A DNA stretch of 64,000 bases from Synechococcus sp. (lineage in GTDB: Bacteria > Cyanobacteriota > Cyanobacteriia > PCC-6307 > Cyanobiaceae), in NCBI GenBank assembly GCA_047285535.1, contig JBJBDC010000001.1, positions 608,136-672,135 on the forward strand, read 5' to 3'. The notes under the pieces were generated by a model. That model saw only the letters and a list, made by a program, of their open reading frames with translations, had not been told where the DNA came from and did no database searches. How positions within the stretch are numbered: the first letter of the stretch is position 1; each line of letters opens with the position of its first letter. A program made the position numbers and the translations under genes. Positions 31,110 through 64,000 of this stretch are shown here, piece after piece.

Positions 31110-31119
31110 GTGGCTGGAA

Positions 31120-31206
31120 CGGAGAGGGAGGGATTCGAACCCTCGATAGAGTTGCCCCTATACAGCATTTCCAGTGCTGCGCCTTCGACCACTCGGCCAC
31201 CTCTCC
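31120..31206 (-). tRNA. tRNA-Ser (GGA)
   Basis: GGAGAGGTGGCCGAGTGG...CAGCA-CT-GGA-AA-TGCTG, long variable arm, GGTTCGAATCC, CTCTCCG; 87 nt, CCA not encoded. Confidence 0.97.
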
Positions 31207-31252
31207 AGTGGCTTGAATGAGAATGTAGCAGGGCGTTTCCTTAGGGACTGAG

Positions 31253-60247: not shown

Positions 60248-60319
60248 GACTCACATTGAACACCTAACTGTTCTCTAGCCAAATTGGCTAAATTAAACAA
60301 TCTAGATTTTGAATCCAGG

Positions 60320-60604
60320 GTGGGTCGTCTTGTCGTCACACACAGCACCTACTTGAAAGGGTTGATTCCTTGGCTTAGGGAACTGGCAAGTGATCCACAA
60401 GTGCAGACCATCACACCAGGAGTGATTGCACGAGTCAAAGGTCGTTGCCAGGAGCTAACACTGAGGCCCTCCATCCCGATCAAAGGGGGATTTAAACTGA
60501 TGGCACGTCGAGGAGGAAGCGCTCAGGAGGTCTTTGTTATCACGACTCTCGATAAACCTGCCTTGATCGATCGGATTGCATCTACCAAATCGACTAATTA
60601 TTGA
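60320..60604 (+). CDS. DUF2103-family protein
   Basis: GRLVVTHSTY..GLIP, TITPGVI, GGFKLMARRG..AQEVF; GTG start at 60320. Confidence 0.85.
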   Translation: MGRLVVTHSTYLKGLIPWLRELASDPQVQTITPGVIARVKGRCQELTLRPSIPIKGGFKLMARRGGSAQEVFVITTLDKPALIDRIASTKSTNY

Positions 60605-61020
60605 CTGATTATAACTATCACGAAGTCGACATAGTTGATCCAGAATCAATGAAATTAAAATTTCGCACTGAATCAAGTATTAGGCTATTTCAAATATTCA
60701 ACCGACAAGTATTCGAGGCATGACAATGAATCATTTGATCATCTTTTGTATTTCACAGAAAAAGGCGGTAATAAAATCGGATAATGTCAATAGATTAATC
60801 AGCGGAATATGGCTGACACAAGCTCGTTAGAGCCAAGCAATAGTTCACTTACTGCAATTGAATCAAAGAAGCCTGCCCTTGAAAATGATATTTTAACCTA
60901 ATCTTGAAAGGATTGGTTTTTAAAACAAACGATTCCCCATCAAATATTGGATTATAGATTATGATCGCACTAAAGAGGTGAACAGACTTTCACGTTATCA
61001 GGAATCACTAGGGGCTTTCC

Positions 61021-61221
61021 ATGTCTATAGACAACCGCTGCAAGGAGCAACAGACAACAGCCAAGCAAATGGTTATCGACTTCAAGCACACCAAACCTGG
61101 CTCTAATGAGCAGCTACGTGCACTGATAACCCTGAGTTTTTTAGTCGGCATGTGGTCTGACTTCCTCAAACATGAGGTAGAGAGAATGGATTTTGCACTA
61201 GAGCTAGAAGCAAACATCTAG
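61021..61221 (+). CDS. Small hypothetical protein, picocyanobacterial type
   Basis: 66 aa; DFKHTKPGSNEQLRAL..LSFLVGMW resembles a small family I recall from marine picocyanobacteria (not verified). Confidence 0.65.
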   Translation: MSIDNRCKEQQTTAKQMVIDFKHTKPGSNEQLRALITLSFLVGMWSDFLKHEVERMDFALELEANI

Positions 61222-61875
61222 CGTTATTCAAATTCCAAGGGATAGAGTAAAGAAGACACATTCTTAATACCGGCTATTCCAAAGATATCACTCCCTTCTA
61301 CTGCTCAAAACACCGTGGACATTAGCCTTGTCTTCGTCTCTGGAGATGTTTATTGATTTCTTGTCAAGATAATCAATCTAATAGCAAACTTAGCCAACCT
61401 TAATATAGACAGACTAATGTCTGACCCCCGACAGAATAACAAAATCCCTCTCTGGTTCACACTTGACATCGCATGCAGTCAAAAAAGCAAACTCAATACC
61501 GAGCAATATCCAAACTATCCCAATCATGTGCTTAAAATGTTCGCTAAGCGAATGACATGATTTCAATCAAACTGAGAGCGAATAACCTTTGTTCGTGAAA
61601 CGCCTGAATGCGTTTGATTTCGCTCAACGCTGATATTTACGCTTAAGTAGTTGCAGTCTCTAGTTGTCAGTGCACCAGTCCAACATTGAGAGCCTGTTAC
61701 ATCCAGTCAATTTAAGGAGAATACGCACTGATCGACTGAGTTACAACCTAGGGGGAATTGGCATTGAGATCAGTCAATCCAAGAGTGATGCATCGATAAG
61801 GTGTGTAGCGGACAACCTTACAGCTACCTGCATATCGAAGCGTTCAATACACATCATCGCCAGTGAATTAAGGAA

Positions 61876-62094
61876 ATGACATTCAGATTTATATCACTAT
61901 CATTTCTTCTTCAGTTCTTTGGTACTCCAGCTGTTATATCAGCTGAAAAAGCTTCACTTTCATTTGGACCGGTTGCAGTACCAAGTCGTCTCATGACTCA
62001 ATGCATAATCCAGGAAAAAATCAACCGTCCTGTCTCACATCCAGACTTCAAAACAGAATGCAAATCACATAACATTGACTATTCAAAATATTGA
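61876..62094 (+). CDS. Small putative secreted protein
   Basis: AAGGA upstream of ATG; hydrophobic leader ending VISA; two Cys. Confidence 0.45.
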   Translation: MTFRFISLSFLLQFFGTPAVISAEKASLSFGPVAVPSRLMTQCIIQEKINRPVSHPDFKTECKSHNIDYSKY

Positions 62095-62176
62095 AGCAAC
62101 TCTCTAGGTACCAATTGATCTCAAGAGTGCAAGAAAAGCTTGCAGCAAACCACTGCTGAGAATCGAAGAATACAAG

Positions 62177-62416
62177 ATGTTTCTCTGTTTAACCTATCAA
62201 GAAGGCTGAGTAAAGAGAACAGAGCATGAAGTTAATCGCTGTTACTTTGAGGCAGAAGATTGCTGATGACGAGGCTGGAGTGTTGCATGTCTTGATGTTC
62301 TTGAAGCCGCTGAAACCATAAATGTGGCTGGTCTTTTGCGAAGGTTTCCTAAGTGGGATGTGGTGAGAGTTGTCGCAGGTGAGACTTCGCAACACAGTGT
62401 GCAATCATTAGGGTAA
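62177..62416 (+). pseudogene. Degraded 80-codon frame with three in-frame TGA stops
   Basis: MFLCLTYQEG*VKRTEHEVNRCYFEAEDC**RGWSVACLDVLEAAETINVAGLLRRFPKWDVVRVV...; TGA at 62207, 62264 and 62267. Confidence 0.45.
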
Positions 62417-62445
62417 ACCGCTCTGCCGTGGGAGCCCCAGTGTTC
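62400..62445 (+). repeat. 46-bp direct copy of an internal 6S RNA segment
   Basis: 44/46 identical to 63361-63406; last 30 bp identical. Confidence 0.95.
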
Positions 62446-62805
62446 ATCTAGAAAACTGGGTGAGCACTACCCGTTCAACTTAAGCTGCACCTGTACGAAA
62501 ATGATTATCACTTATGCAACACATTGCCTCGGTATTATTACTGTTCGGCTAACCATCATATAAGTATTTGCACTGATCGTTTAACCGCTAAGCATTTATA
62601 CAGAACCCCTATATCGATCCTGTATCGGTCCACTTTGAATAACAATCAAGAAAGCTAATCCAGAACGCTCTGAGACACGCCTACAAGCCTCTGCAAGCAG
62701 CGAAAGAATAATACGTATATCAATCAATCACAAATGCAACGCGTTGTAGAGCCTTAGAGGTACTATTATTGTTTAAGGTTTCATGAAAGAATTTAAAAGA
62801 ACTAA

Positions 62806-63192
62806 ATGCGCAATTTAATAAGCTTTTTCTCGGTTGGAATAATGTTCGCCGCTAATCAAGTACATGCGGGTGAACCATGGGGAATTTATAGAACTTCATT
62901 GTCTCATCGCCCAACTCTATATCGATACGCTGGTCACCACGACCGCATTCTGTATGTTCAAGAAAAAGACCCCCAAACGAATTTAATCGAAACTCTAAGG
63001 GTTGACTGCGATGGAATGAAAATAATCGTGCTTGGTGAAAAGAAAGAATGGAAAAAAATAGAGGGCATATGGATAAACCAATTAGGTAAAACCTCTAGCA
63101 TATTTATTCCTCGTAAGTTTAAGTTTTGGTGTTTTCCTGGAGGTGAACCTAGAGATATGACTTGGCCTGACTGCAAATGCCCATGTAAGTAG
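62806..63192 (+). CDS. Putative secreted hypothetical protein
   Basis: Signal peptide ending VHA; AT-rich; Cys-rich C-terminus (DCKCPCK). Confidence 0.65.
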   Translation: MRNLISFFSVGIMFAANQVHAGEPWGIYRTSLSHRPTLYRYAGHHDRILYVQEKDPQTNLIETLRVDCDGMKIIVLGEKKEWKKIEGIWINQLGKTSSIFIPRKFKFWCFPGGEPRDMTWPDCKCPCK

Positions 63193-63290
63193 CGGGTCAC
63201 AAGTGAACTGATCACAGCACTCACTAGCCCCAAACCTTCACAATCACATCGAATCCAATCACCACAGCTTATGGAGCCAGCCCCTTCCGG

Positions 63291-63528
63291 TAGTGCTCTA
63301 GTTCGTGGTTTGGTTAGTGGTTCAAGGAGGGTTTCGTTACGATTAAACTTTGAGAACTATTGCAATCATTGGGGTGAACCGCTCTGCCGTGGGAGCCCCA
63401 GTGTTCGACCTGGAGTTACCAGAAGGGGTGAAAGATTTCGTGAGGATTCGTTTCCAGCTACAGGGCCGGTTTACGGCACCAACACGACAGTCACCCCAAG
63501 TCGAAAGAGAGTCAGATCAGAGCACTAG
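63291..63528 (+). ncRNA. ssrS: 6S RNA
   Basis: Cyanobacterial 6S-like core (GGGAGCCCCAGTGTTC...GTTACCAGAAGG...TTTCCAGCTAC...ACGGCAC...CGAAAGAG), next to the purK 3' end; TAGTGCTCT 63291-63299 pairs with AGAGCACTA 63519-63527; ends approximate, strand from recalled homologues. Confidence 0.85.
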
Positions 63529-63557
63529 AAAAAGGCTGTCACCAACAAAGCAGTTCT

Positions 63558-64000
63558 CTACCAATTTAAGGGAAGAGGCCAAATTTCACGTATCGTTTCC
63601 AACATTTGTTGTGCATGCTTTCCGCGCTCCTCAGCTGTGTTGCCGTTGAGAAGGGTTGTAACGTGACCAACTTTTCGCCCAGGAGTTTCTTCTTTCCCAT
63701 ACCAGTGGAGATACACCTCCTCAATCATGCTTAATTTAGAAAGACGTTCTTCCAGTGGTTCGCCATAATCAGCATTCAATCCAAGCAGATTAACCATTAA
63801 AGAACCGTCAGCAACCAATTCTGGGTTAGGCACCTCCAGCCCCGCAGTGATACAAAGCTGTTGATCAAACTGGCTACTGGAACAAGCCTCAATGGAAAAA
63901 TGACCTGAATTATGAGTTCTAGGAGCGATTTCATTAACATAAATGCCCGTTGAGCCGTAGAACAACTCCAACGTCATCACCCCTACATAACTAAGCTTCG
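63558..64000 (-). CDS. purK: N5-carboxyaminoimidazole ribonucleotide synthase, 3' part
   Basis: VNEIAPRTHNSGH, MVNLLG, HWYGK, GRKVGHVT; runs off the window end. Confidence 0.95.
   Translation of the reverse strand, partial: KLSYVGVMTLELFYGSTGIYVNEIAPRTHNSGHFSIEACSSSQFDQQLCITAGLEVPNPELVADGSLMVNLLGLNADYGEPLEERLSKLSMIEEVYLHWYGKEETPGRKVGHVTTLLNGNTAEERGKHAQQMLETIREIWPLPLNW

What the first reader, a model, noticed from the sequence alone, without database searches (positions are those of the whole stretch)
62400..63406. Internal 46-bp piece of 6S RNA duplicated 961 bp upstream: ssrS as a possible integration target
Seen: TGCAATCATT(A/G)GGGT(A/G)AACCGCTCTGCCGTGGGAGCCCCAGTGTTC at 62400-62445 and 63361-63406 (44/46, same orientation), bracketing an AT-rich orphan secreted-protein gene. 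The upstream copy can close its own hairpin (CCCAGT...ACTGGG) and is followed by GAGCACTA, which also ends the intact 6S RNA. Established: partial duplicates of tRNA/tmRNA genes mark att sites. Inference: either the 6S gene serves as an attachment or recombination hotspot for cargo, or this is a truncated 6S-derived RNA. No integrase is adjacent, and the copy is internal rather than terminal, which does not fit a simple att model.
Basis: partly seen in the sequence, partly recalled or inferred. Interest (0 to 1): 0.7.

Follow-up and report, generated by a model that had tools for sequence, protein, structure and literature searches.

The report
Insertion scar at 6S RNA gene
A 46-base copy of the tail end of the 6S RNA gene lies 961 bases beyond the gene and, together with the gene's own tail, brackets a small piece of foreign-looking DNA, which is the usual footprint of mobile DNA inserting into the end of a small-RNA gene.

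Summary
The 46-nt direct repeat (62400-62445 / 63361-63406, 44/46) is real and far beyond chance. Rfam places 6S RNA on the minus strand (63559->63372), just downstream of purK. The repeat is therefore the last 35 nt of ssrS plus 11 nt beyond it: a terminal 3' piece, not an internal one. The extra copy lies downstream of the gene in the same orientation. This is the classic layout of a restored target gene plus a displaced 3' fragment.

The two copies bracket 915 bp of low-GC DNA (0.41 against 0.48) carrying one orphan gene. This sits inside a 2.8-kb variable stretch between ssrS and a convergent DUF2103 gene.

Among 63 related picocyanobacterial ssrS loci, two more marine Synechococcus (MIT S9507, CUG2176) carry their own partial 3' ssrS copy downstream. 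In CUG2176, three relatives supply the empty site, which shows a 2-kb insertion bounded by the duplication. In 40 measured loci the ssrS-DUF2103 gap ranges from 13 bp to 8.6 kb.

No integrase was found anywhere, so the inserts are remnants or cassettes mobilised in trans.

ssrS is already a known prophage attachment site in Acinetobacter. My searches found no report of it in picocyanobacteria. Verdict: a real, modestly novel member of a known kind.

The parts
63372..63559 (-). ssrS, intact 6S RNA gene (cyanobacterial Yfr7/6Sa type)
   Evidence: Rfam RF00013, 83.4 bits, model 1-187 of 187. Folds as a rod with a 14-pair closing stem. Lies directly downstream of purK, as described for marine picocyanobacteria (PMC1242208, passages).
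63558..63998 (-). purK C-terminal part (runs off the window end), conserved left neighbour of ssrS
   Evidence: Pfam ATP-grasp 1.6e-15 and PurK_C 7.2e-15.
63361..63406 (-). Proximal repeat copy: last 35 nt of ssrS (3' strand of the closing stem and adjoining internal loop) plus 11 nt downstream; attL/attR-like
   Evidence: position relative to the Rfam alignment.
62400..62445 (-). Distal repeat copy: displaced or duplicated 3' fragment of ssrS, 44/46 identical, same orientation, 961 nt downstream of the proximal copy in gene orientation
   Evidence: nhmmer E = 8.1e-6 against a profile of Synechococcus 6S 3' ends. Shares the window-specific CTCCCAC variant with the intact gene; this variant is unique among 42 aligned Synechococcus 6S 3' ends.
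62446..63360 (.). Bracketed insert (segment A), 915 bp, GC 0.409
   Evidence: No nucleotide similarity to the corresponding gap of the nearest relatives L001-L005. 0 Pfam matches at or above a curated cut-off and no recombinase among the 24 window stop-to-stop frames.
62806..63192 (+). Cargo ORF, 128 aa, signal-peptide-like N-terminus and Cys-rich C-terminus; orphan
   Evidence: No Pfam or PHROG family. Of 5 hits, 1 is real (P0001, 97%, 116 aa); the others are repeat-protein noise. Atlas best score 0.87, below the usable level.
60605..62399 (.). Segment B: further low-GC (0.402) variable DNA between the distal copy and the DUF2103 gene; only small orphan ORFs
   Evidence: No similarity to relatives. 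No further degenerate ssrS copy: best local score 20 against a shuffle maximum of 24.
60284..60604 (+). DUF2103 gene, the conserved convergent neighbour that bounds the variable stretch
   Evidence: Pfam PF09876 7.3e-17. Found beyond ssrS in 40 related loci at gaps of 13 to 8597 bp.
62439..62468 (+). 13-pair imperfect hairpin spanning the junction between the distal copy and the insert; unexplained
   Evidence: + strand z -2.5, 2 of 200 shuffles.

Best explanation
The pair of 46-nt repeats is an insertion scar of the attL/attR type. A small circular piece of foreign DNA carrying a copy of the 3' end of ssrS recombined with the resident ssrS inside its last 35 or so nucleotides. This recombination (1) kept a complete, functional 6S RNA gene, (2) placed 915 bp of low-GC cargo, one orphan secreted-protein gene, directly behind it, and (3) left a second copy of the 3' end of the gene on the far side of the cargo. 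The locus between ssrS and the convergent DUF2103 gene is a recurrent landing pad in marine Synechococcus.

Shown: the repeat, its terminal position and orientation, its recurrence in other lineages, an empty versus occupied site in one of them, atypical composition, and orphan cargo.

Inferred: the catalyst was a site-specific (tyrosine-type) integrase supplied either by a larger parent element later lost by deletion or in trans by another element; the cassette entered as a circle; and it may still be excisable by recombination between the two copies.
For: 1. ssrS is on the minus strand, so the repeat is its 3' terminus plus 11 nt, and the second copy is downstream and direct. [quoted passage not shown]

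2. Recurrence. An nhmmer profile of the last 60 nt of 6S was run over all 80 fetched loci plus the window. Extra copies appeared only in the window, in L011 (MIT S9507; 45 nt; 6.9 kb downstream) and in L039 (CUG2176; 51-55 nt; 2.0 kb downstream). That is 3 of the 63 genomes with a complete ssrS 3' end (62 loci plus the window), each downstream and in direct orientation, and each matching its own clade's 6S variant.

3. Empty versus occupied site. L039 12651-13911 (partial copy plus flank) aligns in one piece with the intact ssrS 3' end plus flank of L026, L034 and L038 (71-77% over 1.27-1.35 kb, E = 0). The DNA behind L039's intact ssrS is unrelated.

4. The ssrS-to-DUF2103 gap is 13 bp to 8.6 kb in 40 loci: 100 bp or less in 12, more than 3 kb in 8. 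Three further loci have 4.9 to 9.8 kb of other DNA before the record ends.

5. Inserts are 6 to 12 GC points below their genomes. Cargo is made of orphans or small picocyanobacterial families (DUF1651, DUF3104).

6. ssrS is a documented prophage attachment site elsewhere. In Acinetobacter baumannii a 60-nt repeat overlapping ssrS lies at both ends of a 52-kb prophage and is single in strains lacking it (PMC8914354, passages). ssrS is also among the top prophage hotspots in that species (PMC11998280, passage).
Against: No recombinase was found anywhere. It was absent from 54 window ORFs of at least 110 aa, from 117 stop-to-stop frames of the three inserts and from 118 ORFs of at least 90 aa in 25 ssrS-downstream gaps.

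No attP-like copy of the sequence was found in 50,697 phage records or 72,556 plasmid records.

For the window itself no empty-site relative exists. The nearest relatives (78-82% PurK identity) share no sequence in the gap.

The edges of the identity block differ among the three cases. It starts 35, 44 and 52 nt before the 6S end and stops about +11, 0 and +2 nt after it, so a single conserved core site is not demonstrated.

Both window copies share a substitution (CTCCCAC) seen in none of the 41 other Synechococcus loci aligned. The block also runs 11 nt past the conserved end of 6S. The incoming copy was therefore essentially identical to this lineage's own gene. That fits a cassette circulating within the lineage, but equally fits RecA-type recombination on short homology.

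Only 3 of 63 genomes show the feature.
Confidence: 0.65

Rival explanations
1. The geometry is the same, but no dedicated integrase was involved. A circular or circularised DNA fragment from a close relative, carrying about 46 nt of the ssrS 3' end plus cargo, integrated by host homologous recombination (a Campbell-type single crossover on short homology). The direct repeats can later delete the cargo in the same way.
For: No recombinase in any of the three inserts or in 25 gap regions. Both window copies carry a window-specific substitution, and the identity runs 11 nt past the conserved 6S end. The block edges differ between the three cases.
Against: 46-53 nt is near the lower limit for efficient RecA-dependent recombination (established knowledge, not tested here). 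In three independent events the block ends within about 11 nt of the RNA's 3' end, which looks like selection for gene-restoring att sites, as at tRNA genes. The origin of a circle carrying exactly that fragment is itself best explained by an earlier site-specific excision.
Confidence: 0.2
2. The distal copy is a functional RNA element. Either it is a truncated 6S-like RNA on the minus strand, or, on the + strand, it is a 46-nt antisense-to-6S segment in the leader of the cargo mRNA that pairs with the 6S closing stem.
For: A hairpin can form at the junction (+ strand z -2.5, 2 of 200 shuffles). The copy lies 360 nt upstream of the cargo ORF on the same strand.
Against: No Rfam match at E up to 10. 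No similarity to 6S outside the 46 nt. The minus-strand fold is not better than shuffles (z -1.3). No promoter-like site near 62300-62480 on either strand. The copy has two C-to-T differences in the part that closes the 6S stem. The partial copies in L011 and L039 have different neighbours.
Confidence: 0.05
3. Chance similarity or an assembly artefact.
For: None found. Reads are not available to me.
Against: 0 of 100 shuffles; E = 2.8e-16. The same architecture occurs in a complete chromosome (L011, NZ_CP138970.1) and in a 2.1-Mb contig (L039). A 46-bp repeat 961 bp apart is shorter than typical reads.
Confidence: 0.02

Closest known systems
Genomic islands integrated in tRNA/tmRNA genes (Islander definition; PMC4383910, abstract seen in the listing)
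   Same: Integration into the 3' part of a small stable-RNA gene. The gene is regenerated, and a displaced 3' fragment in direct orientation marks the far end. Low-GC cargo. Repeated use of one site.
   Different: The target is the 6S RNA gene, not a tRNA or tmRNA gene. No integrase lies within the bracketed DNA. The insert is only 0.9 kb (2.0 and 6.9 kb in the two other genomes).
Prophages at ssrS in Acinetobacter baumannii (Phi19606 and others; PMC8914354 passages; PMC11998280 passage)
   Same: The same target gene. A direct repeat overlapping ssrS lies at both ends of the inserted DNA and is single in strains without it.
   Different: Those are intact prophages of about 52 kb in a gammaproteobacterium, with a 60-nt repeat. 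Here the host is a marine picocyanobacterium, the cassettes are tiny and integrase-less, there are no phage genes, and the ssrS sequence is unrelated.
Tycheposons and tycheposon-like insertions of Prochlorococcus and Synechococcus (bioRxiv 10.1101/2020.12.28.424599 passages; PMC8995045 passages)
   Same: Marine picocyanobacteria. Islands are seeded at the 3' side of small RNA genes. Partial target copies separate successive or degenerate insertions. Small cargo of unknown function. Degenerate remnants without integrase are described.
   Different: The reported targets are six tRNAs and tmRNA (Prochlorococcus) and tRNA-Phe (Synechococcus). '6S RNA' and 'ssrS' occur 0 times in the preprint and '6S RNA' 0 times in PMC8995045 (listing). 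The defining recombinase and replication genes are absent here.
Cis-mobilisable elements (CIMEs) derived from integrative elements: att-flanked DNA lacking its own recombinase (recalled from memory, no call)
   Same: Bracketed by att-like direct repeats, carries no integrase, and could only move with an integrase supplied in trans.
   Different: No cognate integrase-bearing element is known for this site in cyanobacteria. Mobility is untested.
sRNA genes as prophage targets in E. coli and Salmonella (ryeB, ryeE; PMC3603311 passages)
   Same: Structured small-RNA genes other than tRNA serve as integration sites.
   Different: Different RNAs, enterobacterial hosts and full prophages.

Membership tests
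Integrative island at a small-RNA gene (tDNA-type attL/attR arrangement) | Intact target gene plus a second, partial copy in direct orientation on the 3' side | tested here: met
Integrative island at a small-RNA gene (tDNA-type attL/attR arrangement) | The duplicated block reaches the 3' end of the target gene, so the gene is restored | tested here: met
   The block covers 6S nt 153-187 of the Rfam model plus 11 nt beyond. The gene scores 83.4 bits over the full model and keeps all 14 closing-stem pairs.
Integrative island at a small-RNA gene (tDNA-type attL/attR arrangement) | Integrase (tyrosine or serine recombinase) gene inside the bracketed DNA | tested here: not met
   0 recombinase matches in 24 stop-to-stop frames of window 60605-63360 and 93 frames of the L011 and L039 inserts. 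0 in 54 window ORFs. 0 in 118 ORFs of 25 related gaps.
Integrative island at a small-RNA gene (tDNA-type attL/attR arrangement) | Empty site in related genomes: target gene followed directly by the distal flank | tested here: inconclusive
   Window: the nearest relatives share no gap sequence. L039: met, with L026, L034 and L038 as empty sites. L011: not resolved; L007 shares the flank but has 3.2 kb of other DNA and no detectable fragment.
Integrative island at a small-RNA gene (tDNA-type attL/attR arrangement) | Atypical composition and accessory gene content of the bracketed DNA | tested here: met
   GC 0.409 against 0.484. The orphan ORF has one homologue.
Integrative island at a small-RNA gene (tDNA-type attL/attR arrangement) | Excision to a circle with attP, and regeneration of attB | not testable with these tools
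   Needs reads or PCR.
Tycheposon | Element-encoded recombinase plus a replication or packaging module | tested here: not met
Tycheposon | Attachment site in one of the reported tRNA or tmRNA genes | tested here: not met
   The site is ssrS. The only tRNA in the window is tRNA-Ser(GGA) at 31119-31207, 31 kb away.
6S RNA (RF00013): is the distal copy a second 6S gene? | Rod-shaped fold with closing stem, central bubble and terminal loop, reaching the Rfam gathering score | tested here: not met
   No hit at E up to 10 in 62000-64000 apart from the intact gene. Only 46 nt are shared.
Cis-mobilisable (recombinase-less, att-flanked) element | att-like direct repeats at both ends and no recombinase | tested here: met
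Cis-mobilisable (recombinase-less, att-flanked) element | Mobilisation by a cognate integrase supplied in trans | not testable with these tools
   No cognate element was found in the data that could be searched.

The most novel reading that the evidence does not exclude
The 3' end of ssrS is a genuine, still-active attachment site in marine Synechococcus. It would be a new island seed beside the tRNA and tmRNA sites known for picocyanobacteria. It would be used by a family of very small, integrase-less cargo cassettes (0.9-7 kb) that excise as circles carrying a 45-55-nt ssrS tail and are moved by an integrase supplied in trans. A candidate source is phage-derived elements such as the T7-like RNA-polymerase-bearing insert that sits directly behind ssrS in Synechococcus UW140 (L032).
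Probability: 0.3. Interest if true: 0.6.

Novelty: new member of a known kind. Interest (0 to 1): 0.45.

Why it matters
Flexible genes of marine picocyanobacteria are concentrated in islands seeded at a handful of tRNA and tmRNA genes. Adding the 6S RNA gene would extend the map of landing pads in Synechococcus. Tools that look only for tRNA or tmRNA fragments miss this site.

It would also give a defined 28-46-nt probe for fishing the corresponding circles or integrases out of viral, vesicle and cellular metagenomes.

Because 6S RNA is a global regulator of RNA polymerase, elements that rebuild its 3' closing stem could also subtly alter it.

The individual instance in this window is small: one orphan gene.

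Tried and rejected
1. Third or older ssrS fragment at the far end of the low-GC stretch: none. BLAST-short over the window found none, and local alignment of 60560-62395 scored 20 against a shuffle maximum of 24.

2. Longer, decayed 6S copy around the distal fragment: rejected.

3. Inverted 10-mer GGTAGTGCTC near both ends of the insert (62462-62471 and 63289-63298). About 0.4 such pairs are expected by chance in 915 bp (my estimate), so I do not count it as evidence.

4. Integrase remnants: none.

5. attP-like copies in phage records (only chance hits to coliphages at E of 0.1 or above) and in plasmid records: none.

6. Homology of the window's gap to relatives, at DNA level and at protein level for the 128-, 72-, 71- and 66-aa ORFs: none.

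7. Degenerate fragment in L007, where L011's flank homology predicts one: none above shuffle level.

8. The search for homologous proteins on the 128-aa ORF timed out. It was replaced by the exhaustive representative search.

9. Protein atlas for the 128-aa ORF: best score 0.87, below the usable level.

10. Literature. Searches found ssrS as an att site only for Acinetobacter (passages read). None concerned cyanobacteria. One search was swamped by 'SSRs'. Searches were format slips and were corrected and re-sent.

Full report
OBSERVATION

The window holds a 46-nt direct repeat at 62400-62445 and 63361-63406, with 44 of 46 positions identical and a spacing of 961 nt. Its 28-nt identical core occurs exactly twice in 64 kb, and none of 100 dinucleotide shuffles gave two matches. 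BLAST of the ssrS region against the whole window gave E = 2.8e-16 for the second copy and nothing else above noise. The repeat is real.

STRAND AND POSITION

Rfam's 6S model (RF00013) matches only the minus strand, 63559 to 63372, over the full model at 83.4 bits. No other hit appears in 62000-64000 even at E up to 10. The gene begins right after the stop of a minus-strand purK (Pfam ATP-grasp and PurK_C). This is the conserved position of 6S/Yfr7 in marine picocyanobacteria (PMC1242208, passages).

The RNA folds as the expected rod, whose closing stem pairs nt 5-18 with the 3' strand at 63376-63389. The repeat is therefore the last 35 nt of the gene plus 11 nt beyond it. The extra copy lies downstream of the gene in the same orientation.

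That is why the piece looked internal and upstream, and why GAGCACTA seemed to end the RNA. That 8-mer in fact lies near the 5' end, and sharing it is at chance level.

SURROUNDINGS

Upstream of the locus the window is ordinary core genome, running thf1, an unknown 497-aa ORF, clpS, pucC and a DUF2103 gene ending at 60604. GC falls from about 0.48-0.49 to about 0.40 between 60605 and 63360. This 2.8-kb stretch lies between the convergent DUF2103 gene and the 3' end of ssrS.

The distal repeat copy divides the stretch into two segments:
- Segment A (62446-63360, 915 bp) holds one 128-aa ORF with a signal-peptide-like N-terminus. The ORF has no Pfam or PHROG family and one real homologue, 97% identical, among 1.84 billion representatives.
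- Segment B (60605-62399) holds only small orphan ORFs.

No recombinase is present in the window: 0 of 54 ORFs of at least 110 aa and 0 of 24 stop-to-stop frames of the stretch. No further, more decayed ssrS fragment was found.

RELATED GENOMES

With the PurK fragment I fetched 80 loci with up to 10-kb flanks from one-genome-per-species contigs. The nearest are marine Synechococcus SAGs and MAGs at 78-82% PurK identity. The window's own species is not among them.

6S follows purK in 64 loci, and 62 of those have a complete 3' end. I searched each locus with its own 6S 3' end, and searched all loci plus the window with an nhmmer profile of the last 60 nt. Extra copies appeared in only three genomes:
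- the window;
- L011 (Synechococcus MIT S9507, complete chromosome; about 45 nt; 6.9 kb downstream);
- L039 (MAG CUG2176; 51-55 nt; 2.0 kb downstream).

All three copies are downstream and direct, and each matches its own clade's 6S variant.

THE DECISIVE COMPARISON IS L039

Its partial copy and the following 1.2 kb, up to the DUF2103 gene, align in one piece with the intact ssrS 3' end and flank of L026, L034 and L038 (71-77% identity over 1.27-1.35 kb, E = 0). The DNA behind L039's intact ssrS, and the DNA in front of its partial copy, match nothing in those relatives.

L039 is therefore an occupied site, with a 2.0-kb insert bounded by a 51-53-nt duplication of the ssrS tail. The three relatives are empty sites.

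For L011 and for the window no empty-site relative was available.

HOTSPOT BEHAVIOUR

In 40 loci where both genes are seen, the distance from the end of ssrS to the DUF2103 gene runs from 13 bp (WH 7803) to 8,597 bp (MIT S9507). It is 100 bp or less in 12 loci and more than 3 kb in 8. Three more loci have 4.9 to 9.8 kb of unrelated DNA before the fetched record ends.

The inserts are 6 to 12 GC points below their genomes. They carry orphans or small picocyanobacterial families such as DUF1651 and DUF3104.

One locus, L032 (Synechococcus UW140), has phage-derived genes directly behind ssrS. These are an 810-aa T7-like RNA polymerase (PHROG 414, 4e-144; 27-28% identical to cyanopodovirus polymerases) and a scaffold-like protein. 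Its far end lies outside the 10-kb flank.

WHAT IS MISSING

No integrase was found in any insert or gap. No phage or plasmid record carries the block.

The edges of the identity block differ between the three cases. In the window both copies share a substitution found in none of the 41 other aligned Synechococcus loci, and the identity runs 11 nt past the conserved end of 6S.

These points allow a rival reading in which host homologous recombination on short homology, rather than an integrase, joined a circle to the chromosome. They do not change the geometry, which is an insertion at the gene's 3' end with target duplication.

MECHANISM

The best reading (confidence 0.65) is an attL/attR-type scar. 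A circle carrying an ssrS tail and cargo recombined within the last 35 or so nt of ssrS. This restored the gene and left the second tail beyond the cargo. The recombinase was either lost with the rest of a larger element or acted in trans.

Rivals are RecA-type Campbell integration (0.2), a functional 6S-derived or antisense RNA (0.05) and artefact or chance (0.02).

COMPARISON WITH WHAT IS KNOWN

ssrS itself is a documented prophage site in Acinetobacter baumannii, with a 60-nt repeat overlapping the gene at both ends of a 52-kb prophage (PMC8914354, passages; PMC11998280, passage). Other sRNA genes serve as sites in enterobacteria (PMC3603311, passages).

In picocyanobacteria the described seeds are six tRNAs and tmRNA (tycheposon preprint, passages; '6S RNA' and 'ssrS' occur 0 times) and tRNA-Phe in Synechococcus (PMC8995045, passages). 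Searches found no paper linking 6S RNA to integration in cyanobacteria. Subscription journals and supplements were not covered.

VERDICT

It is a new member (a new host group, with tiny integrase-less inserts) of a known kind of insertion site. Interest is moderate.

Noticed in passing
L032:10624-20435 (Synechococcus sp. UW140, NZ_UCOB01000003.1): Directly behind ssrS lie at least 9.8 kb of low-GC DNA (0.451 against 0.572). It carries 13 minus-strand ORFs, including an 810-aa T7-like single-subunit RNA polymerase (27-28% identical to cyanopodovirus RNAPs) and a 236-aa scaffold-like protein in an unusually compact order. This looks like a phage-derived element or remnant. Its far end and any integrase are outside the fetched flank.
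   Followed up: partly
L040:13558-15027: The island behind ssrS in MAG xHP1_bin.305 encodes a 489-aa DUF4041 + T5orf172/MUG113 protein (phrog_1847, 3.3e-129), a type common in phages and mobile or defence islands. The contig ends before the DUF2103 gene.
   Followed up: no
L006:14114-15297: Three tandem Nif11-domain peptide genes (leader type of prochlorosin-like precursors, from recall) lie in more than 9.8 kb of DNA behind ssrS in MAG CUG2213. No DUF2103 gene lies within reach.
   Followed up: no
L046:515-2020 and L047:9324-10829 (both from contig QBWA01000009.1, Prochlorococcus SAG AG-315-B03): A 1,506-bp stretch (purK 3' part, ssrS and about 190 nt beyond) occurs twice, 100% identical and about 26 kb apart, on one contig. 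It is either a true duplication or a single-cell assembly chimera.
   Followed up: partly
L001 (CBDCRZ010000020.1): This contig is titled as a Sansalvadorimonas MAG but carries the Synechococcus-type purK-ssrS-DUF2103-pucC-clpS synteny at 75-88% identity to the window. It is probably a mis-binned picocyanobacterial contig.
   Followed up: no
window 62462-62471 and 63289-63298: The 10-mer GGTAGTGCTC occurs only twice in the window, as an inverted pair 16 nt and 62 nt inside the two ends of the bracketed insert. This is roughly chance level for 915 bp, but the placement is suggestive of arm-type sites.
   Followed up: partly
window 62439-62468: A 13-pair imperfect hairpin straddles the junction of the distal repeat copy and the insert (+ strand z -2.5). 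Its function is unknown.
   Followed up: partly
window 31119-31207: The only tRNA in the window is tRNA-Ser(GGA) on the minus strand, set among core genes. No partial copy of it was looked for.
   Followed up: no
window 62806-63192 and 62842: The single homologue of the cargo ORF (P0001) is annotated from the internal Met13, and a promoter-like site overlaps 62815-62843. The true start, and hence the signal peptide, is uncertain.
   Followed up: no
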